From contig PTKO01000003.1 of assembly GCA_002937775.1 (NCBI GenBank), positions 1-50,192 on the forward strand: a stretch of DNA of 50,192 bases, given 5' to 3'. The notes under the pieces were generated by a model. The model was given only the letters and a program-made list of their open reading frames with translations. It was not told the origin of the DNA and did not search any database. Position numbers and translations under genes: made by a program. The DNA comes from Alphaproteobacteria bacterium MarineAlpha6_Bin4 (GTDB lineage: Bacteria; Pseudomonadota; Alphaproteobacteria; GCA-002720895). Below are positions 1 to 6,534 of the stretch, piece after piece. Each line of letters opens with the position of its first letter. The first letter of the stretch is position 1.

Positions 1-1182
1 GAAAACCCTTGGGATTTAGCCTTCACAAAAGCCGGCGATATGTTTTACACTGAAAAATGTAAAGGTCTTTCAGTTAAGACTAAATCCGGTTCTGTAAATG
101 CATTGTACGGAATGAAAGATTCTTCAGGCTACAATAGTACTGGAAGTGATCTTTTTTGTTCTGGTCAAGCTGGCATGATGGGGGTTACTTTAGATCCTAA
201 GTTTAAAAATAACCGTAGGATCTATGTTGCATCAACTTCCAGCAAATATCATGGCTCTGGTTGTAAGGACAACTTCGATAAATGTGATGGTGGTATTATC
301 ATGAGATTTACTGTAAGTAAAGACATGAAGAGTGTTTCTGATCGTACCGATATTGTAAAAGATATACAATATAAGCCATTTAAGTCTGACCATCCATTTG
401 GAGGACCTGGCGCTCATAATGGTAACAGATTACGTTTCGGACCTGATGGTTACCTTTGGGCAACAACAGGAGATCGTCACAGAGGAGATGTTCCTCAATC
501 ACCAACACTACTTGGTGGTAATGTTCTTCGAATTGACACAGATGGCAAAGCTCATCCTGGAAATAAACCTCCAAAAGGCTTTGATAAGCGTATGTATACC
601 TATGGACATAGAAATGTTCAAGGTATAGATTTTCGTCCTAGCGATGGACGAGCTTTTACTGCTGAGCATGGACCATGGCATAACGATGAAATAACTGCTT
701 TGGTCAATGGTGGTAATGGAGGATGGGACCCTCGTCCAAATATTGCTGGTCGTGGTGATTGTCCTGATGAATATTGTGGATACATGCCTAACCAAAAAGA
801 AGGTATGCTTCCAGCTGCTCGTGCTGAAGCCGGTACACCAATGAGTGATACTCGTTTTAAAGACTTAATGTCTCCAGCATGGAACAACAATGGTATTTCT
901 CAGGGAACAGGCTCTGCTGCTTTCTTAAAAGGAAGTAACTGGGGTTACTGGGAAGGACGATTGGCTGTTGGAATCATGGGCATTGGTTTCGGCGGAACAC
1001 CATCTGGTATGAGAATTGACGTAATTGATATTGCTAAAGATGGCAAGTCAATTAAAAGTGTAATTCATATACCGACTGGCTTAACAAAGAGATTTAGAGG
1101 TTTAAGACTTGGACCAGACAATGCTCTTTATGCTGCAGTTGATGAAGGTGAAATCTTCAAAATTACAGCAACTACCAAATAA
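1..1182 (+). CDS. PQQ-dependent sugar dehydrogenase (soluble glucose/aldose dehydrogenase, 6-bladed propeller); 5' end lies outside the window
   Basis: Frame is open from base 1 (ENPWDLAF). Family motifs HNGNRLRFGPDGYLW, YGHRNVQG, EHGPWHNDEI and RFRGLRLGPDNALY are present. Confidence 0.88.
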   Translation, partial: ENPWDLAFTKAGDMFYTEKCKGLSVKTKSGSVNALYGMKDSSGYNSTGSDLFCSGQAGMMGVTLDPKFKNNRRIYVASTSSKYHGSGCKDNFDKCDGGIIMRFTVSKDMKSVSDRTDIVKDIQYKPFKSDHPFGGPGAHNGNRLRFGPDGYLWATTGDRHRGDVPQSPTLLGGNVLRIDTDGKAHPGNKPPKGFDKRMYTYGHRNVQGIDFRPSDGRAFTAEHGPWHNDEITALVNGGNGGWDPRPNIAGRGDCPDEYCGYMPNQKEGMLPAARAEAGTPMSDTRFKDLMSPAWNNNGISQGTGSAAFLKGSNWGYWEGRLAVGIMGIGFGGTPSGMRIDVIDIAKDGKSIKSVIHIPTGLTKRFRGLRLGPDNALYAAVDEGEIFKITATTK

Positions 1183-1189
1183 TTGATTT

Positions 1190-1219
1190 ACTCGCGCCAT
1201 GATAGTGGCGCGAGTTTAT
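1190..1219 (+). terminator. Intrinsic terminator-like hairpin
   Basis: Perfect 10-bp stem ACTCGCGCCA/TGGCGCGAGT with a 6-nt loop, 7 nt after the stop codon; the T-tail is short. Confidence 0.75.
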
Positions 1220-1245
1220 CTATCTTTAATAATTCTTAAAAATTT

Positions 1246-1266
1246 AAATATGGCAAAAATATGGCA
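1246..1266 (+). promoter_or_regulatory. Direct repeat AAATATGGCA x2 (11-bp period), candidate activator site
   Basis: Exact 10-mer at 1246 and 1257, upstream of TATAAT at 1296-1301. Confidence 0.4.
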
Positions 1267-1312
1267 TTTTTTATGTGGACAAAGCCATTTTTTTTTATAA
1301 TGATCTTAAAAG

Positions 1313-1333
1313 TACTGATAATTATTTTCAGTA
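1313..1333. promoter_or_regulatory. Near-perfect 21-bp palindrome, candidate operator
   Basis: TACTGATAAT-T-ATTTTCAGTA (9 of 10 pairs), between TATAAT (1296-1301) and the SD GGGAGGT (1347-1353). Confidence 0.4.
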
Positions 1334-1360
1334 TATTATTAATCTCGGGAGGTTATATAT

Positions 1361-3052
1361 ATGACTTCGATCAAAAAAACTCTAAGTGTTGCTACAGTTT
1401 TAGCTACAATCTCTGGTTTTGCATTTGCTACTAGTGCTGGAGAATACGCTAAACTTCCAGGTAAAAATTGGCTTGGATACGGTGGTGATGCTGGACAACA
1501 AAGATACCATCCAAGTACTGGTATCAATGTCAAAAATGCTAAGAATCTAAATGTAAAATGGATTCATCAGCATGGTGAAAAACTGGGTTCACATGAAACA
1601 ACTCCAGTTATAGAAGACGGCATTATGTATTACACAACTCCTTACAATCATGTATTTGCAGTTGATGCAAAAACAGGTAAAGAGTTATGGCAATACACTC
1701 ACAAAAACAAACCAGCTATTTATTGTTGTGGTCCTAATAGTAGAGGTGTGGCTTTATTAAAAGATAAAGTTGTATTTGCTACTTTGGATGCAATGTTAGT
1801 TGCTTTGGACAAAAAAACAGGAGCTCTTGCATGGGAACATCAAATAGCTGACAACGAAGCTGGCTATTCTCAAACTCATACACCTGCTGTTTATAAAGAT
1901 AAAATAATCATGGGTATGTCTGGTGCTGAATACGGTATCCGTGGTTTTATATCTGCATACAACATCGATGACGGTAAATTAGCATGGAAATGGTATACTG
2001 TTCCATCTCCATCTTACACTAATCCTGACGGCCTTAAAGGCTGGGAAGGTGACTTTGTAAATGTTACTGACCCTGGAGTTGGTGACGAACCGTTAAACCG
2101 TGACATCGCTGCAGAAAAAGCTGCTATTAAATCAGGTAAATATGATGATGCCTGGAAAGTTGGTGGTGCATCTGCGTGGATGACAGGATCTGTTGATCAT
2201 TCTGATGGATCTGTTTATTTCACAACTGGAAATCCATCTCCTGACTTAGATGGAACTATTAGACCTGGTGATAACAGATGGTCTGATGCTCTAGTTAAAA
2301 TCAATGCTGATAGTGGAAAGCTAATTTGGGCTTACCAATATATCAGACACGATGTATGGGATCTTGACTCTGTTTCTCCTCCAATCCTAGCGGATGTAAA
2401 GGACGAAGGTGGCAAGATGATCAAAGGTGTTATTCATGGTGGAAAAACTGGATGGACTTATGTTCATGCAGCATCTGACGGACGTTTAATCCGTAGATCT
2501 AAAGAGATGATTCCTCATGAAAATCTTTTTGCTTTACCTACTAGCGAGGGAACAAGAATGCTTCCTGGTGCTAATGGTGGAGTTGAATGGTCACCTGGTG
2601 CTTTTAGCCCAAAAACACGTCTAGTCTATTATGTTAATCTTCACCAACCTATGAATTATATAACTCATAGCGCTGGTTATCAAAAAGGTAAACTATGGCT
2701 AGGTTCTGCTTTTGTTGCTATTCCTGGTGAAAAACAGTGGGGCAGAATATCTGCTGTTAACGTAGACACTGCTAAAATCGAATGGGAAGTTGATACTGAC
2801 GAACCAATGATCGGTGGTGGCTGTGTGACTGGTGGAGACGTTTTCTTTGCTGGAGAAGCTAATGGCTACTTCAGAGCTTATAACGCTAAAACCGGTAAAA
2901 AACTATGGGAGTTCCAAACTGGAGCTGGAGCTAATGCTGCTTGTGCTTTATACGAGCTAGGCGGTAAACTTCACGTTGCAGTTGCTTCTGGTGGAAATGC
3001 ACAAATTAATGCACCACGTGGGGACAATCTTATCGTTTTTACAGTAGACTAA
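1361..3052 (+). CDS. Periplasmic PQQ-dependent alcohol dehydrogenase (methanol/ethanol family), probably lanthanide-dependent
   Basis: Signal peptide, vicinal CC (YCCGPNSRG), GAEYG Glu, TGNPSP Asn, HDVWDLDS with DxD, tryptophan-docking repeats (TGKELW, TGKKLWEF) and a strong SD. Confidence 0.92.
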   Translation: MTSIKKTLSVATVLATISGFAFATSAGEYAKLPGKNWLGYGGDAGQQRYHPSTGINVKNAKNLNVKWIHQHGEKLGSHETTPVIEDGIMYYTTPYNHVFAVDAKTGKELWQYTHKNKPAIYCCGPNSRGVALLKDKVVFATLDAMLVALDKKTGALAWEHQIADNEAGYSQTHTPAVYKDKIIMGMSGAEYGIRGFISAYNIDDGKLAWKWYTVPSPSYTNPDGLKGWEGDFVNVTDPGVGDEPLNRDIAAEKAAIKSGKYDDAWKVGGASAWMTGSVDHSDGSVYFTTGNPSPDLDGTIRPGDNRWSDALVKINADSGKLIWAYQYIRHDVWDLDSVSPPILADVKDEGGKMIKGVIHGGKTGWTYVHAASDGRLIRRSKEMIPHENLFALPTSEGTRMLPGANGGVEWSPGAFSPKTRLVYYVNLHQPMNYITHSAGYQKGKLWLGSAFVAIPGEKQWGRISAVNVDTAKIEWEVDTDEPMIGGGCVTGGDVFFAGEANGYFRAYNAKTGKKLWEFQTGAGANAACALYELGGKLHVAVASGGNAQINAPRGDNLIVFTVD

Positions 3053-3070
3053 TAATTAAAGTCTAGATAT

Positions 3071-3113
3071 TATGGGGCATCTTTTTTTTTTAAAAAGGTG
3101 CCCTATATTTTTT
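3071..3113 (+). terminator. Intrinsic terminator/attenuator between the dehydrogenase and the cupredoxin
   Basis: Stem TATGGGGCATCTTTTT/AAAAAGGTGCCCTATA (two G-U pairs) followed by a T-run. Confidence 0.7.
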
Positions 3114-3127
3114 AAATTAGGTATTAA

Positions 3128-3724
3128 ATGTTTTTAAAAAAATTATTAATTTCATTATTTGGTTTAATTTTATTATTTGTATTTAATCCAATTAATGCAG
3201 AGCATCATGGAGCTGGCGAAAAAATTACACCTTCATGGATGGTTGTTGATAGCGAAAATAAATTTGTTACATTTACTTTAACTTCAGCATATAACGGAAA
3301 TAATGGTTCATGGAATTATAATGGTTTTTATAATGGTTCTGCAAATTTAATTGTACCTCAAGGATGGAATGTTAATTTGAAATTTGTTAATCCAGATGGC
3401 AATTATAGACATAGTATAGCTGTGATTAAAATGTGGGATGGTGATAATGTCCCGCAAGAAGCAGATGACTCATTAGTTGCTATTGCAAGAGCTTATAGTT
3501 TATCACCGGCACAAGGGTGCCTTTCTTGCAAGGAAGATGTAAAATTTAAAGCAAAAAATAGAGATGATTATACAATTGGTAAATATTCTGTATTTTGTGG
3601 TGTTCCAGGACATGGAGGATCTGGAATGTGGTTAGGGTTTTCAGTTAAAGACGGAATAGATGCTCCTTTTGTTTTGTTTGATAAATCTGCAATGGATGAA
3701 GGATATGCAAAGCCGCTACTTTAG
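3128..3724 (+). CDS. Secreted sulfocyanin/rusticyanin-like type-1 (blue) copper protein
   Basis: Signal peptide, NYNG and LIVPQGWNV segments typical of sulfocyanin-like proteins, upstream His (YRHS) and C-x4-H-x4-M loop (CGVPGHGGSGM). Confidence 0.82.
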   Translation: MFLKKLLISLFGLILLFVFNPINAEHHGAGEKITPSWMVVDSENKFVTFTLTSAYNGNNGSWNYNGFYNGSANLIVPQGWNVNLKFVNPDGNYRHSIAVIKMWDGDNVPQEADDSLVAIARAYSLSPAQGCLSCKEDVKFKAKNRDDYTIGKYSVFCGVPGHGGSGMWLGFSVKDGIDAPFVLFDKSAMDEGYAKPLL

Positions 3725-4349
3725 TTTTTTTCTTTTAATTATTTTCTTCTTTTTTAATAGTAATAAATCTTTTTCGGAAGATGAGTTTCCTTCTTTAGAT
3801 CTTAATAAAGATCAAAATAAGATTGTTCAAAATGCTTTAACAAGTTGTAAAGATGTTAATTTTGAAAATTTGTTAAATTCCAGAAAAGAAAAGCTAGGAG
3901 TAAGTGAACCAGATAAAACTATTAATAAAAAAAAACAATTAGATAATTCTTTAGGCATTGAAGTTAGCAGATCTATTGAAACAATTTACACTCCCAAACA
4001 GTCATTAGACAATGTAAATAAAATTTTATCATCTATAAAAGATGATCGTCTATATCCTGCTATTAAGTATTATATAATTAAAGACTTTGCTTTTTATGAA
4101 AGTGGTTTATGCAAATCATTAAAAAGTCACTTTGACACCTACAAAGTTTACAAAGAGTTTTATTTAAAAACTAAAAATAAAGAATTAGACCCAATTTATG
4201 AAAATGAAAATAATTTAAATTTTTTTTACAAAAATTCTTCTGCTGCACGAAAAAGATTGCTACTTGCTATTCAATCAAAAAAAAGACTTTTAGAGAAAGA
4301 ACAGTTTCTTTTAAAGAATCTTAGAATTTTTGCAGAAACTTATATTTAA
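3705..4349 (+). CDS. Hypothetical secreted protein
   Basis: Long ORF. ATG 3705 follows GAAGGA and precedes a hydrophobic signal-like segment; overlaps the cupredoxin stop. No recognised domain. Confidence 0.65.
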   Translation: MQSRYFSFFLLIIFFFFNSNKSFSEDEFPSLDLNKDQNKIVQNALTSCKDVNFENLLNSRKEKLGVSEPDKTINKKKQLDNSLGIEVSRSIETIYTPKQSLDNVNKILSSIKDDRLYPAIKYYIIKDFAFYESGLCKSLKSHFDTYKVYKEFYLKTKNKELDPIYENENNLNFFYKNSSAARKRLLLAIQSKKRLLEKEQFLLKNLRIFAETYI

Positions 4350-4696
4350 TGTTTTGGATCTAAACCGGAGTGCTCAATAATATATTTTGTCAGTGGTTCT
4401 AAATCATCCAAAAGTCTAATCGTGGTATTTTTATAGTGTGCAGTATCCAATTTATCTTCATATGTTTTTATTTCATGGTACATATCAATAGCTTTAACTA
4501 ATTTTTTTCTTACTTTTAATAAATCTTCTAAACTTTTAAAATGTCCTTTTGATCCAATTGCAAAAGCATCCTCAGCATCACTCACTAACATTCCTGCTTT
4601 CTTAATTCTTTCATCTAAATCATCAGCATATATGTGGCCAGAATTAATAAAAGAAAAAATAAATAAAAGTATTGAGATTTTTAAAAGTTTAAGCAT
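4346..4696 (-). CDS. Hypothetical secreted helical protein
   Basis: 116-aa ORF with a signal peptide ending IYA|DD. Confidence 0.65.
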   Translation of the reverse strand: MLKLLKISILLFIFSFINSGHIYADDLDERIKKAGMLVSDAEDAFAIGSKGHFKSLEDLLKVRKKLVKAIDMYHEIKTYEDKLDTAHYKNTTIRLLDDLEPLTKYIIEHSGLDPKH

Positions 4697-4729: not shown

Positions 4730-5296
4730 ATGAAAAATTTTTTTTATATTTTTTTGTTCACTTTTATTCCATTAATCATTTTTGCCAATGAGTTAGATGA
4801 AGAACTAATTGATAAAAAGTTTAATCAAATAAAAACTTCAGAGTTTTGTAATACTAGTGAATGGAGTGAAATTCAAAGAAAAGATTTTGTTAAGGCTTTT
4901 GTTTTAGGCCGGTATTGGGAGATTGAAGAAGCAAATGAATCAGAAAAAATAGATCAGCAAAGCTTTGATAAATTTTTTAACGAAATTTGTCAAAACGAAG
5001 GTTTGTTAATTAAAAATATTGAGAACTTAATTTTAAAAAATAATATTAAAAGATTTTATTACACGGGACATGATTGGATTAAATTAGATATTCAAAGAAA
5101 AAAAATATTTATTAAGGGGTATAATTCAGGGATCAAATCAAATAATGATGAAAAAAAAAGAATGGTAGTAAAATATAATGTTCTATTTTCCAGATTATCA
5201 GATTATTATTTCTACACTAATCATAGAGATGAAACAGTAGATCTATCAATCAAAACTATAGTTGACCAGATTTTTGGACATTTGTATGTAGATTAA
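4730..5296 (+). CDS. Hypothetical secreted protein with an internal duplicated motif
   Basis: Signal peptide IFA|NE. Two similar segments: W..IQRKDFVKAF..G and W....IQRKKIFIKGY..G. Confidence 0.65.
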   Translation: MKNFFYIFLFTFIPLIIFANELDEELIDKKFNQIKTSEFCNTSEWSEIQRKDFVKAFVLGRYWEIEEANESEKIDQQSFDKFFNEICQNEGLLIKNIENLILKNNIKRFYYTGHDWIKLDIQRKKIFIKGYNSGIKSNNDEKKRMVVKYNVLFSRLSDYYFYTNHRDETVDLSIKTIVDQIFGHLYVD

Positions 5297-6534
5297 TTAG
5301 GTAACTTTAAATCTTTAATAATTAAATAACCCAGAATAAAAAAAATAATTATACTTACAAAACCTGCTTTTTGATTATTAAAAGTAGTTGTCAATAAAGC
5401 TACAAAATAGGGGCCTAGAAAGGCAGTTATTTTTCCTGACAACCCGTATATTCCAAACATCTTTGATTGATCATTTATTTTTGATAATCTAGCCATACAT
5501 GACCTACTAGTAGATTGCAATCCTCCAATAAAAAGACCTATGCCAATTCCTAATATCCAAAAAAGAATTTTATTATTTGTAATTAAAATAAATGAGCAAA
5601 TGGATATTAAAGATATAAGGCAAGTTTTTATAATTATCCTTGGTCCAAATTTATCATCAAAAAAAGCAAAAATTACAGAACCAAATCCAGCCGAAATATT
5701 TAAAGCAATTCCAAATAAAATTATTTCACTAAATTCCATATTATATAATGTCGCAGCATAAATTCCCCCAAATGCAAACAAAGTATTTAATCCATCAGTG
5801 TAAAGCATTCTTGAAATTAAAAATTTTAGCGTAGTATTTTCTATTGATAAAAATGTTTTCTTTATATTTGCTATTAAATTAATTCTTTTTATTTTTATTT
5901 TTTTTTCTTTTATAAAAATAAAACTTGGGATACTAAAAATTAAAAACCACAATCCTATAAATGGACCAATAATTCTTACATGTTCAAATTTTTCTTTATC
6001 CAACCCAAATACAGGTTTTTCAGGGTTAATAAAAAGCAAAAAACAAATAATAAGTGAAACAATGCCCCCTATATATCCCAAAGACCAGGCGATGCCTGAT
6101 ATTTTGCCAATATTATTTTTATCTGATACTTTTTTTAATAATGCATTATAAAAAACAGTTGATATTTCGAAGAATACATTACCGAGCCCAATGATTATTA
6201 AAATAAAAAGAATTATATTTTTATTAGTGTCAGCAAACCATAGAAGAAATGCAAACAAACACGTTAAACAGGATGAAATAATTAAAAAAACTTTTCTTCT
6301 TTTTATAATATCTGAATAAATCCCAATAATTGGAGCTAAAAATGCTAATGCTAAACCTGATATTGACAACATATAACCCCATAATGAAGTTCCTATAATT
6401 TCATTTGGGGCTACATTTTTTACAAAATATGTAGAAAAAATAAAAGTAATAATAACTGTAGGCCAAGCTGAGTTCGCCCAATCTAGTAAAGACCAACTAC
6501 AAAGTTCTTTGTTAATTTTCCTTTTGATAAACAA
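5293..6534 (-). CDS. MFS transporter, UMF1/Atg22-like family
   Basis: About 12 hydrophobic segments; WSLLDWANSAW, FYNALL, SRMLYTDGLNT and FGIYGLSGK motifs. TTG start is uncertain. Confidence 0.85.
   Translation of the reverse strand: MFIKRKINKELCSWSLLDWANSAWPTVIITFIFSTYFVKNVAPNEIIGTSLWGYMLSISGLALAFLAPIIGIYSDIIKRRKVFLIISSCLTCLFAFLLWFADTNKNIILFILIIIGLGNVFFEISTVFYNALLKKVSDKNNIGKISGIAWSLGYIGGIVSLIICFLLFINPEKPVFGLDKEKFEHVRIIGPFIGLWFLIFSIPSFIFIKEKKIKIKRINLIANIKKTFLSIENTTLKFLISRMLYTDGLNTLFAFGGIYAATLYNMEFSEIILFGIALNISAGFGSVIFAFFDDKFGPRIIIKTCLISLISICSFILITNNKILFWILGIGIGLFIGGLQSTSRSCMARLSKINDQSKMFGIYGLSGKITAFLGPYFVALLTTTFNNQKAGFVSIIIFFILGYLIIKDLKLPN

What the first reader, a model, noticed from the sequence alone, without database searches (positions are those of the whole stretch)
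1..3724. Candidate periplasmic oxidation module: lanthanide-type PQQ dehydrogenase wired to a blue copper protein instead of a cytochrome c
Seen: two PQQ enzymes of different folds in tandem, followed by a secreted sulfocyanin-like cupredoxin. I found no CxxCH cytochrome and no XoxJ/MxaJ-like gene in the flanking ORFs. The dehydrogenase has all metal ligands plus WDLDS. Known: the second Asp in WDxD marks lanthanide enzymes (XoxF, ExaF/PedH) versus Ala/Ser in MxaF/PedE, and those systems normally use cytochromes c (XoxG, ExaB/PedF). Inference: a rare-earth + PQQ + copper, heme-free entry into respiration, which would spare iron in an oligotroph. A long insertion (…EPLNRDIAAEKAAIK…) suggests a clade other than canonical XoxF/PedH, so the substrate is unknown.
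Basis: partly seen in the sequence, partly recalled or inferred. Interest (0 to 1): 0.78.

Follow-up and report, generated by a model that had tools for sequence, protein, structure and literature searches.

The report
PQQ alcohol dehydrogenase paired with cupredoxin
A marine bacterium carries a periplasmic PQQ alcohol dehydrogenase with a lanthanide-type metal site whose conserved gene partner is a blue copper protein in the place where related enzymes carry a two-haem cytochrome c, so electrons probably leave this enzyme through copper.

Summary
The three genes are real. They are a soluble glucose/sorbosone-type PQQ dehydrogenase (1-1182, cut by the contig start), a 563-aa PQQ alcohol dehydrogenase (1361-3052) with the metal ligands E190, N291, D334 and D336, and a 198-aa SoxE-type cupredoxin (3128-3724) with a complete type-1 copper site.

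The copper wiring is well supported. In 19 of 73 related loci with downstream DNA the same cupredoxin follows the dehydrogenase. In the sister clade, 29 loci carry a ~200-aa dihaem cytochrome c in that slot. Natural dehydrogenase-cupredoxin fusion proteins also exist.

- A monohaem cytochrome c gene lies just upstream of the first dehydrogenase, on the adjoining contig. That pair is a separate cassette, absent in a 95%-identical sister genome.
- Congeners also carry xoxF-xoxG-xoxJ with pqqBCDE, so "haem-free" and "iron-sparing" are not supported.

New here: a conserved ~197-aa secreted helical protein of no known family sits upstream of the dehydrogenase in 13 loci.

Lanthanide use, substrate and electron transfer remain untested. 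This scan already noted dehydrogenase-cupredoxin pairs and fusions on other DNA (soil bacteria). I found no paper that describes them.

The parts
1..1182 (+). Soluble glucose/sorbosone-type PQQ dehydrogenase (GSDH family), 5' end cut by the contig start. The full length in congener G001 is 434 aa with a signal peptide. It belongs to a separate two-gene cassette with a monohaem cytochrome c gene that lies on contig C15 of the same assembly.
   Evidence: PF07995 1.6e-49. TIGR03606 94 bits, below the 434 cut-off. 97% identical 434-aa ORF in G001 preceded by a 114-aa CxxCH protein. The end of C15 aligns just upstream of the window start.
1190..1215 (+). Terminator-like hairpin after the GSDH gene (11 pairs, 7 G-C, then a T-rich tail). 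It separates the GSDH unit from the alcohol dehydrogenase unit.
   Evidence: Pattern scan; sequence read. Function not tested.
1361..3052 (+). Periplasmic type-I PQQ alcohol dehydrogenase, 563 aa, with a Sec-type signal peptide read by eye, the lanthanide-type W-D-L-D motif and a clade-specific insertion. A member of its clade is named 'type 9' by one database source.
3071..3107 (+). Conserved hairpin followed by a T run, between the dehydrogenase and cupredoxin genes. It may be an attenuator or a 3' stabiliser of the dehydrogenase mRNA.
   Evidence: Scan. Conserved in G000, G003, G007 and G008, with a G-U to A-U change in G008. Function not tested.
3128..3724 (+). Secreted SoxE-type cupredoxin, 198 aa, with type-1 copper ligands H95, C157, H162 and M167. 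It is the proposed one-electron acceptor of the dehydrogenase.
   Evidence: PF06525 59 bits against a cut-off of 21. Ligands align with those of rusticyanin (ligand numbering of rusticyanin recalled). H95, C157 and H162 are invariant and M167 nearly so in 19 sequences. AF2 model pLDDT 86.7 and best solved fold rusticyanin. Synteny and fusions.

Best explanation
The unit is a periplasmic alcohol-oxidising module made of the PQQ dehydrogenase (1361-3052) and its own blue copper electron acceptor (3128-3724). In the alphaproteobacterial branch there is a third gene, for a ~197-aa secreted helical protein, which here lies on the adjoining contig.

Proposed mechanism, all steps inferred:
1. The enzyme oxidises an alcohol (identity unknown) at a PQQ/metal centre that has the lanthanide-type ligand set.
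2. Reduced PQQ is re-oxidised in two one-electron steps by the type-1 copper of the cupredoxin. This is the role a dihaem cytochrome c plays in the sister clade and cytochromes cL/c550 play for XoxF/PedH.
3. The reduced cupredoxin passes electrons on to the haem-copper oxidase, directly or through a cytochrome c, which feeds the proton-motive force.

The neighbouring GSDH gene, with its own cytochrome c gene, is a second, independent dehydrogenase-carrier cassette that landed next to this module.

Shown: gene identities, ligand sets, conserved adjacency, slot replacement, fusions. Inferred: electron transfer, metal and substrate.
For: (1) Adjacency. Of 79 related loci, 73 have DNA downstream of the dehydrogenase. 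In 19 a SoxE cupredoxin follows directly on the same strand, and in 1 it lies 603 nt away on the other strand. SoxE is rare: one copy in this genome, and it rings in 1 of 14 control genomes.

(2) Same-slot swap. In 29 loci the gene in that position is a ~190-225-aa protein with two CxxCH motifs (PF00034 and PF13442). In 2 more, a fasciclin gene comes first.

(3) Tree (87 rows). The partners sort by clade. A 22-row clade (support 100) holds 12 cupredoxin-partnered rows including the window. Its 36-row sister clade (support 100) holds 29+2 cytochrome-partnered rows and no cupredoxin.

(4) Fusions. An exhaustive search with the cupredoxin gave proteins that are PQQ dehydrogenase plus a C-terminal SoxE domain: P0203 (752 aa), P0240 (741 aa), and the shorter P0188 and P0222, whose PQQ matches start part-way into the Pfam model. 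P0203 and P0240 are 39-40% identical to the window enzyme along its length and share the insertion and a W-D-Y-D motif. P0206 fuses SoxE with COX2 and cytochrome c, which fits delivery to the oxidase.

(5) Within the family, the cupredoxin is adjacent in all 4 genomes where the 3' end of the dehydrogenase and downstream DNA are assembled: G000, G003, G007 and G008.

(6) Copper ligands are conserved and both proteins have signal peptides.

(7) Thermodynamics. Passages in PMC6315138 give PQQ domains about 90-100 mV and cupredoxins 150-680 mV.

(8) PQQ supply. pqqBCDE occurs in congeners; PqqC was found in 5 of 11 family genomes.

(9) Contigs 99-100% identical to the dehydrogenase occur in 4 of 4 marine RNA libraries laid, out of 24 listed. 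Presence in an RNA library does not prove transcription.
Against: - There is no biochemical evidence of any kind.
- A terminator-like hairpin lies between the two genes, so they may not be made in equal amounts or on one transcript.
- 4 rows of the 22-row clade lack the cupredoxin downstream: L021 (which has a P460-like protein with one CxxCH there), L023, L026 and L027. A 14-row Gemmatimonadaceae clade has no recognised partner within 6 kb.
- PqqC was not found in this genome itself, which is 69% complete.
- The lanthanide-type Asp is invariant in the whole clade, so it predicts the metal but does not distinguish this enzyme.
- The organism has cytochromes c that could also accept electrons.
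Confidence: 0.68

Rival explanations
1. The physiological first acceptor is a c-type cytochrome encoded elsewhere: the monohaem cytochrome c just upstream of the GSDH, XoxG, or the second cytochrome c. The cupredoxin would act further down the chain or in parallel, as a general periplasmic carrier to the oxidase.
For: The genome has two cytochrome c genes, one about 1.5 kb upstream of the dehydrogenase. Congeners have xoxG. The SoxE-COX2-cytochrome c fusion P0206 ties this cupredoxin type to the oxidase end of the chain. A hairpin separates the two genes.
Against: The upstream cytochrome travels with the GSDH. Both are absent in G003 while the dehydrogenase-cupredoxin pair remains. Direct fusions of PQQ dehydrogenase to the SoxE domain exist with no haem domain detected by Pfam. 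The cupredoxin occupies the exact slot of the sister clade's dihaem cytochrome.
Confidence: 0.12
2. One reading: cytochrome-free GSDH, alcohol dehydrogenase and cupredoxin form one rare-earth, PQQ and copper pathway that spares iron in an oligotroph.
For: The genes lie in a row on one strand. GSDH genes also occur near relatives of the dehydrogenase in 2 of 79 loci, L054 and L063. The genome is small and AT-rich.
Against: A cytochrome c gene directly precedes the GSDH. The GSDH-cytochrome cassette is variably present and is followed by a terminator-like hairpin. The cupredoxin-partnered clade is mostly from non-marine, high-GC lineages by record title. xoxG and a haem-copper oxidase are present.
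Confidence: 0.06
3. The cupredoxin-like protein is not a redox carrier for the enzyme. It would be a metal-handling or maturation factor, for example for copper or lanthanide, or the pairing would be a hitch-hiking neighbourhood without functional coupling.
For: A cupredoxin-domain protein (LutC) is annotated in lanthanide transport clusters in Table S5 of PMC12542740. No interaction evidence was obtained.
Against: The full type-1 copper ligand set is conserved. The pair is conserved across several phyla by record title while the other neighbours vary. Fusions exist. The slot is exchanged with a cytochrome, which is a redox carrier.
Confidence: 0.08
4. The dehydrogenase uses Ca2+, or is inactive in this organism for want of PQQ, despite the Asp signature.
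For: PqqC was not found in this 69%-complete genome. The motif is a clade-wide default. No member of the clade that I could find in print has been assayed.
Against: All four ligands including the extra Asp are invariant. The best solved relative is the lanthanide enzyme PedH. Congeners carry pqqBCDE beside xoxF.
Confidence: 0.06

Closest known systems
PedH / ExaF-type lanthanide-dependent quinoprotein ethanol dehydrogenases (PDB 6zcv, 6zcw)
   Same: Best solved relatives (E 5.5e-82, aligned over residues 41-549). Same propeller domain, vicinal Cys pair, Glu/Asn/Asp ligands and extra Asp (W-D-F-D against W-D-L-D).
   Different: PedH lacks residues opposite part of the window enzyme's 228-245 region. 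The partner here is a cupredoxin, not cytochrome c550 (the PedF partner is recalled). The TIGR03075 score is below the cut-off.
XoxF-XoxG-XoxJ methanol dehydrogenase system
   Same: Periplasmic, PQQ-dependent, lanthanide-type Asp. Congeners of this organism carry a full xoxF-xoxG-xoxJ-pqqBCDE island.
   Different: About 33% identity to that XoxF, separated from it by the longest branches of the tree. No XoxG- or XoxJ-like neighbour; a cupredoxin and a family-less helical protein instead.
Sister clade: the same enzyme type with a ~200-aa dihaem cytochrome c (weakly PdsA-like)
   Same: 49-53% identity, same insertion and motif, and a partner gene in the same position and of similar size.
   Different: The partner is a dihaem c-type cytochrome (PF00034 and PF13442; NF049874 PdsA 59-72 bits, below the 330 cut-off).
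Type II quinohaemoprotein alcohol dehydrogenase with azurin
   Same: A PQQ alcohol dehydrogenase whose natural acceptor is a blue copper protein (passage in PMC8348568).
   Different: There the electron passes first through the enzyme's own C-terminal haem c domain. Here no haem domain is present, and in the fused relatives the cupredoxin itself takes the C-terminal place.
Methylamine dehydrogenase with amicyanin (recalled, not checked here)
   Same: A periplasmic quinoprotein dehydrogenase with a dedicated, co-encoded cupredoxin as obligatory first acceptor.
   Different: Different cofactor (TTQ), different enzyme fold, and a different cupredoxin subfamily.
Sulfocyanin (SoxE) and rusticyanin
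   Same: The Pfam SoxE domain matches above threshold. Rusticyanin is the nearest solved fold, and its copper ligands align.
   Different: The equivalog models are far below their cut-offs: TIGR03094 47.9 against 168.4, TIGR03095 21.7 against 146.7. TM-score is only 0.43-0.56. Bacterial, and partnered with a PQQ enzyme rather than an archaeal oxidase supercomplex or iron oxidation.

Membership tests
Type I PQQ alcohol dehydrogenase (quinoprotein, methanol/ethanol superfamily) | PQQ beta-propeller domain along the whole protein | tested here: met
   PF01011 265.7 bits against a cut-off of 26.7. Aligned to PedH over residues 41-549.
Type I PQQ alcohol dehydrogenase (quinoprotein, methanol/ethanol superfamily) | Vicinal Cys-Cys and the Glu/Asn/Asp metal ligands | tested here: met
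   C122-C123, E190, N291 and D334 are invariant in A1 and align with the corresponding residues of PedH.
NCBIfam TIGR03075 (PQQ dehydrogenase, methanol/ethanol family) | Score at or above the curated cut-off of 480 bits | tested here: not met
   432.3 bits and 424.3 bits on the genome. The congener XoxF scores 631.9.
Lanthanide-dependent PQQ dehydrogenases | Extra Asp two residues after the catalytic Asp (D-x-D) | tested here: met
   W333-D334-L335-D336, with D336 invariant in 18 of 18 sequences. The meaning of the motif is stated in PMC11996626 (passage).
Lanthanide-dependent PQQ dehydrogenases | Activity that depends on La/Ce/Nd and not on Ca | not testable with these tools
   Needs an enzyme assay.
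XoxF | Clusters with XoxF and is linked to xoxG (cytochrome cL) and xoxJ | tested here: not met
   33% identity to the congener XoxF, which stands apart as outgroup in the tree. No XoxG or XoxJ match among the neighbours.
PedH/ExaF | Clusters with PedH or ExaF and is linked to cytochrome c550 | tested here: inconclusive
   PedH is the best solved hit, but no PedH sequence could be put in the tree. No c550-type neighbour was found.
'Type 9' PQQ alcohol dehydrogenase (classification of Keltjens et al. 2014, paper not held) | Clusters with sequences that carry this label | tested here: inconclusive
   P0120, named 'pqq-dependent alcohol dehydrogenase type 9' by a source, lies inside the same 22-row clade. 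That is one label only, and the defining paper was not read.
Sulfocyanin (TIGR03094 equivalog) | Score at or above 168.4 bits | tested here: not met
   47.9 bits. Only the broader Pfam SoxE domain is met.
Type-1 (blue) copper proteins | His, Cys, His and Met ligand set in cupredoxin spacing | tested here: met
   H95 and C157-x4-H162-x4-M167. H95, C157 and H162 are invariant and M167 is at 90% or more, with Gln in L029. They align with the rusticyanin ligands.
Soluble glucose/sorbosone dehydrogenase (PF07995) | GSDH domain above the gathering score | tested here: met
   169.5 bits against a cut-off of 25. The narrower TIGR03606 is not met, 94 against 434.55.

The most novel reading that the evidence does not exclude
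This is a distinct, widespread class of PQQ alcohol dehydrogenase in which PQQ hands electrons straight to type-1 copper with no haem in the first step. It occurs as separate genes and as natural fusion proteins. In Alphaproteobacteria it comes with a dedicated, family-less helical periplasmic protein (N-terminal DWPC and C-terminal LCxR cysteines, plus a conserved acidic D-D-A-x-D-E stretch). That protein would take the accessory role XoxJ has elsewhere, perhaps loading the lanthanide or PQQ, or docking the carrier.
Probability: 0.35. Interest if true: 0.75.

Novelty: new variant of a known kind. Interest (0 to 1): 0.6.

Why it matters
PQQ alcohol and methanol dehydrogenases are textbook cytochrome-c-linked enzymes. 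A conserved copper-linked branch would add a second way for alcohol-derived electrons to enter respiration.

Its features give clean test objects: an in-place swap with a dihaem cytochrome, natural fusions, and a new accessory protein. The fusion proteins should be blue and self-reducing on adding substrate.

The window's enzyme also matters ecologically. Near-identical sequence turns up in marine RNA libraries of many studies. Its congeners carry the same kind of xoxF and pqq island as the small-genome marine methylotrophs now thought to dominate surface-ocean methanol oxidation. A second, copper-linked lanthanide-type dehydrogenase of unknown substrate in such cells would bear on marine carbon, copper and rare-earth budgets.

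Tried and rejected
- Complex prediction of dehydrogenase (residues 30-563) with cupredoxin (28-198), both with alignments. No verdict: scores 0.01, 0.40 and 0.07 against a mark of 0.32. It counts neither way.
- Co-transcription from RNA-library contigs. In the 4 runs laid, no listed contig bridges 3049-3175, and the cupredoxin is covered only by fragments in 2 of 4 runs: X1, 153 nt identical; X2, 247 nt with 22 differences. Contigs cannot show absence or rank genes, so nothing is concluded.
- A more sensitive profile of 19 cupredoxins over all ORFs of the 79 loci found the same 20 loci and no hidden ones.
- Search for further conserved neighbours. 45 flanking ORFs scanned against Pfam gave varied, unrelated families (RraA-like, sugar transferase, EamA, porin, DUF218, TonB receptor and others). 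There is no substrate clue.
- Recent horizontal transfer as the reason for the GC jump (36-40% against 26%). The excess is at codon positions 1 and 2. GC3 is 22-24% for the two dehydrogenases and 16% for the cupredoxin, against 15-18% for other genes. This is mostly amino-acid composition, so there is no clear sign of recent transfer.
- The helical protein has no Pfam or NCBIfam match. The Atlas holds only 'hypothetical protein' clusters for it, database names are all 'hypothetical', and no solved fold matches at E 0.001 or better.
- Named reference sequences (PedH, XoxF1-5, MxaF) could not be put in the tree.
- Literature. Searches found no paper that describes a PQQ dehydrogenase-cupredoxin gene pair or fusion. 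Only listings were seen for most papers. Keltjens 2014 and Huang 2019 are not held, and they may bear on the 'type 9' label and on any assays.

Full report
WHAT IS THERE

The window is the first 50,192 bases of contig C23 of an 855-kb assembly. The assembly has 43 contigs, about 26% GC, and is 69% complete.

Three genes lie on the + strand at the reported place.
- 1-1182 is the 3' part (393 aa) of a glucose/sorbosone-type soluble PQQ dehydrogenase: PF07995 at 1.6e-49, and TIGR03606 below its cut-off.
- 1361-3052 encodes a 563-aa PQQ alcohol dehydrogenase: PF01011 at 1.3e-78, and TIGR03075 at 432 bits against a cut-off of 480.
- 3128-3724 encodes a 198-aa cupredoxin of the SoxE domain family: PF06525 at 4.3e-16. 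The sulfocyanin and rusticyanin equivalog models are far below their cut-offs.

Both complete proteins begin with a hydrophobic signal-like segment (read by eye; helix 2-18 in the model). A terminator-like hairpin follows the first gene (1190-1215), and a second one lies between the dehydrogenase and cupredoxin genes (3071-3107). The second hairpin is conserved in four genomes of the family.

THE DEHYDROGENASE

The best solved relatives are the lanthanide enzyme PedH (6zcv at 5.5e-82, 6zcw). They score ahead of quinohaemoprotein dehydrogenases, XoxF and MxaF.

In an alignment of 18 clade members, the vicinal C122-C123, E190, N291, D334 and the lanthanide-type D336 (W-D-L-D) are invariant. PedH has a gap in the stretch just before that region.

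The large protein database holds many 57-66% identical relatives. One is named 'pqq-dependent alcohol dehydrogenase type 9' by its source. I could not read the paper that defines this type. I found no assay of any member in the papers I could search.

The metal is therefore predicted from the motif only.

THE PARTNER

I fetched 79 loci that encode relatives of the enzyme and looked at the gene directly downstream. Six loci end in or just after the dehydrogenase gene. The other 73 sort as follows.

| Downstream partner | Loci |
|---|---|
| SoxE cupredoxin directly downstream, same strand | 19 |
| SoxE cupredoxin 603 nt downstream, other strand | 1 |
| ~190-225-aa protein with two CxxCH motifs (PF00034, PF13442; weakly like the dihaem shuttle PdsA) | 29 |
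| Fasciclin gene followed by such dihaem cytochromes | 2 |
| None of these | 22 |

I built a tree of 87 rows: the window, 74 of the 79 loci, 6 database proteins and 6 outgroups. Five loci with dehydrogenase ORFs under 500 aa were left out. The method was quick IQ-TREE. The partners sort by clade.
- The window sits with its 95%-identical relative L017 in a 22-row clade (support 100). That clade holds 12 cupredoxin-partnered rows, 6 rows without genomic context and 4 rows with other neighbours.
- The sister clade of 36 rows (support 100) holds the 29+2 cytochrome-partnered rows and 5 others, two of which are loci without downstream DNA. It holds no cupredoxin.
- Deeper branches, from records titled Gemmatimonadota, Rokubacteria or Methylomirabilota, again carry the cupredoxin (7 rows). 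A 14-row Gemmatimonadaceae clade has no recognised partner.

With outgroup rooting this pattern favours the cupredoxin as the older partner. However, the basal forks are unresolved, so I do not claim a direction.

FUSIONS

An exhaustive search with the cupredoxin gave 522 proteins at E 0.001 or better. Of the 150 best hits listed, I scanned 12 of the longer ones against Pfam.
- Four are PQQ dehydrogenase plus a C-terminal SoxE domain: P0203 (752 aa), P0240 (741 aa), and the shorter P0188 and P0222, whose PQQ matches start part-way into the Pfam model.
- P0203 and P0240 are 39-40% identical to the window enzyme over its whole length. They share the insertion and a W-D-Y-D motif.
[quoted passage not shown] This fits a carrier that ends at the oxidase.
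- The idea to look for fusions came from earlier notes of this scan on soil bacteria. The fusions reported here were found and checked independently.

THE CUPREDOXIN ITSELF

H95, C157 and H162 are invariant and M167 nearly so in 19 sequences. One Methylomarinum-titled member has Gln at the Met position. These residues align with the copper ligands of rusticyanin (ligand numbering recalled).

The AF2 model is confident (pLDDT 86.7). Its nearest solved fold is rusticyanin (E 2.9e-7, TM 0.43-0.56), followed by CuA domains. It is the only SoxE-type gene found in the genome.

The window starts inside the first gene. In congeners G001 and G006 the order is pgk, a 197-aa ORF, a 114-aa ORF with a signal peptide and one CxxCH (a monohaem cytochrome c), then the 434-aa GSDH, and then the contig ends.

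In this assembly, contig C15 ends with the same pgk, the 197-aa ORF and the cytochrome c gene. By alignment to G001, it stops about 154 nt before window base 1. So the real order here is:

197-aa ORF | cytochrome c | GSDH | hairpin | alcohol dehydrogenase | hairpin | cupredoxin.

In G003, whose dehydrogenase is 95% identical, the cytochrome c and the GSDH are both absent, and the 197-aa ORF directly precedes the dehydrogenase. The GSDH with its cytochrome is therefore a separate, variably present cassette.

A published table for a marine TMED127/Methylaequorales single-cell genome lists a 434-aa 'gdh' preceded by a ~103-aa 'cytochrome c3'. Both are among the most transcribed genes there, and they sit in a different neighbourhood (PMC12542740, results section and Table S5 part 121). 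The match to the window's cassette rests on length and gene order, not on a sequence comparison.

A THIRD MEMBER OF THE MODULE

The 197-aa ORF is not a bystander. Homologues were detected by BLASTP at E 1e-9 to 1e-19 against the G003 protein, and then by a profile search. They lie directly upstream of the dehydrogenase on the same strand, 31-173 nt away, in 13 loci: L017, L019-L024, L026, L028 and L030-L033.
- All 13 are members or near relatives of the 22-row clade. The profile found none in the other loci.
- Three of them (L021, L023, L026) are loci that lack the cupredoxin.
- The protein has a signal peptide, two conserved cysteines (C33, nearly invariant, in D-W-P-C; C176, invariant, in L-C-x-R) and an acidic stretch before the second one.
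- Its model is all-helical with a long hairpin (pLDDT 87.4).
- It has no Pfam or NCBIfam family, no named relatives and no solved fold match.
- Its role is unknown. An accessory role, such as cofactor or metal loading or docking, is a guess.

CONTEXT IN THE ORGANISM

- The genome encodes two small cytochromes c and an A-type haem-copper oxidase subunit I.
- PqqC was not found in it. It is present in 5 of 11 family genomes.
- In G003, pqqBCDE sits next to a canonical xoxF (632 bits), a methanol-type cytochrome c and a MoxJ-like binding protein.
- Orthologues of the window enzyme (92% identity or more) were seen in 6 of 10 other family genomes, all incomplete.
- The cupredoxin was seen in 5 of 10. 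It is adjacent in each of the 4 genomes where that stretch is assembled.

These cells thus seem to run a normal cytochrome-linked XoxF as well as this copper-linked second enzyme. That speaks against a haem-free or iron-sparing reading. The gene set resembles what PMC12542740 describes for TMED127/Methylaequorales, but I did not test membership.

EXPRESSION

24 marine or aquatic RNA-library runs from 19 studies hold 23-37% of the sampled words of bases 1-3800. I laid 4 of them, from 4 studies. All hold contigs 99-100% identical to parts of the dehydrogenase gene, and two hold cupredoxin fragments. These are assembled contigs in RNA libraries. They show presence, not transcript structure or level.

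MECHANISM AND CONFIDENCE

The most likely reading (0.68) is that the cupredoxin is the dedicated one-electron acceptor of the dehydrogenase and passes electrons toward the oxidase.

Redox values quoted in PMC6315138 make the step downhill: PQQ domains about 90-100 mV, cupredoxins 150-680 mV.

Known analogues:
- the type II quinohaemoprotein dehydrogenase, whose natural acceptor is azurin (PMC8348568 passage);
- methylamine dehydrogenase with amicyanin (recalled);
- a hypothesis for marine archaea that lack cytochrome c (PMC7300363 passage).

What differs here is a haem-less type-I enzyme with a SoxE-type partner, exchanged in place with a dihaem cytochrome in the sister clade.

NOVELTY

The searches found no paper that describes this pair or the fusions. 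Two key papers are not held. This scan has noted dehydrogenase-cupredoxin pairs and fusions before on other DNA, so the window is a further member, a marine and probably expressed one, of an apparently undescribed variant.

Noticed in passing
Contig C15 of the same assembly (L106:3912-4505 +), just upstream of window base 1: A 197-aa secreted, all-helical protein with two conserved cysteines (DWPC ... LCxR) and an acidic stretch. It has no known family or fold match. It is conserved directly upstream of the dehydrogenase in 13 related loci.
   Followed up: yes
L106:4638-5003 + (end of C15) and window 1-1182: A monohaem cytochrome c gene plus a 434-aa GSDH form a two-gene cassette. It is present in G000, G001 and G006 and absent in G003. 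By length and gene order it looks like the highly transcribed 'cytochrome c3' plus 'gdh' pair of a TMED127 genome in PMC12542740, Table S5.
   Followed up: partly
Window base 1 / end of C15: The assembly breaks in this region in several genomes of the family. Contigs of G001, G005, G006, G007, G008, G009 and G010 start or end inside or next to these genes. This fits strain-level presence or absence of the cassette.
   Followed up: partly
Window 3660-4349 (+), 4346-4696 (-), 4730-5296 (+): Three AT-rich ORFs with signal-like N-termini and no family match. ORFs of the same size and order occur downstream of the cupredoxin in G003 and G007. The first overlaps the cupredoxin stop by 65 nt if its first ATG is used.
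   Followed up: partly
Window 5293-6534 (-): An Atg22-like MFS transporter is kept near the pair in G003 and G007 as well. No link to the dehydrogenase was tested.
   Followed up: no
P0206 (790 aa, database protein): [quoted passage not shown]
   Followed up: partly
P0189 (472 aa) and L055:2395-3888: An ABC-transporter substrate-binding domain (PF04392) fused to a SoxE cupredoxin. In L055 it lies directly downstream of a relative of the dehydrogenase, in a record titled Methylomirabilota.
   Followed up: no
L063:5701-9639 and L054: In two cytochrome-partnered relatives a GSDH-family gene lies nearby. In L063 it directly follows the dihaem cytochrome. GSDH and this enzyme type therefore co-occur in more than one lineage.
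   Followed up: partly
Window 1-3724 against the rest: GC is 32-41% in the three genes against about 24-31% elsewhere. The excess is at codon positions 1 and 2. GC3 is only slightly raised in the two dehydrogenases.
   Followed up: yes
L016 (G003:C17): Congener island: pqqBCDE, a MoxJ-like protein, a methanol-type cytochrome c, xoxF, a CXXCW protein, a SoxH-like metallohydrolase, a pentapeptide-repeat protein and a SoxYZ-like carrier.
   Followed up: partly
Window 9335-40291: A long same-strand run of ORFs whose sizes suggest the tuf-rpoBC-ribosomal protein region (1376-aa and 1395-aa ORFs). Not checked against any family library.
   Followed up: no
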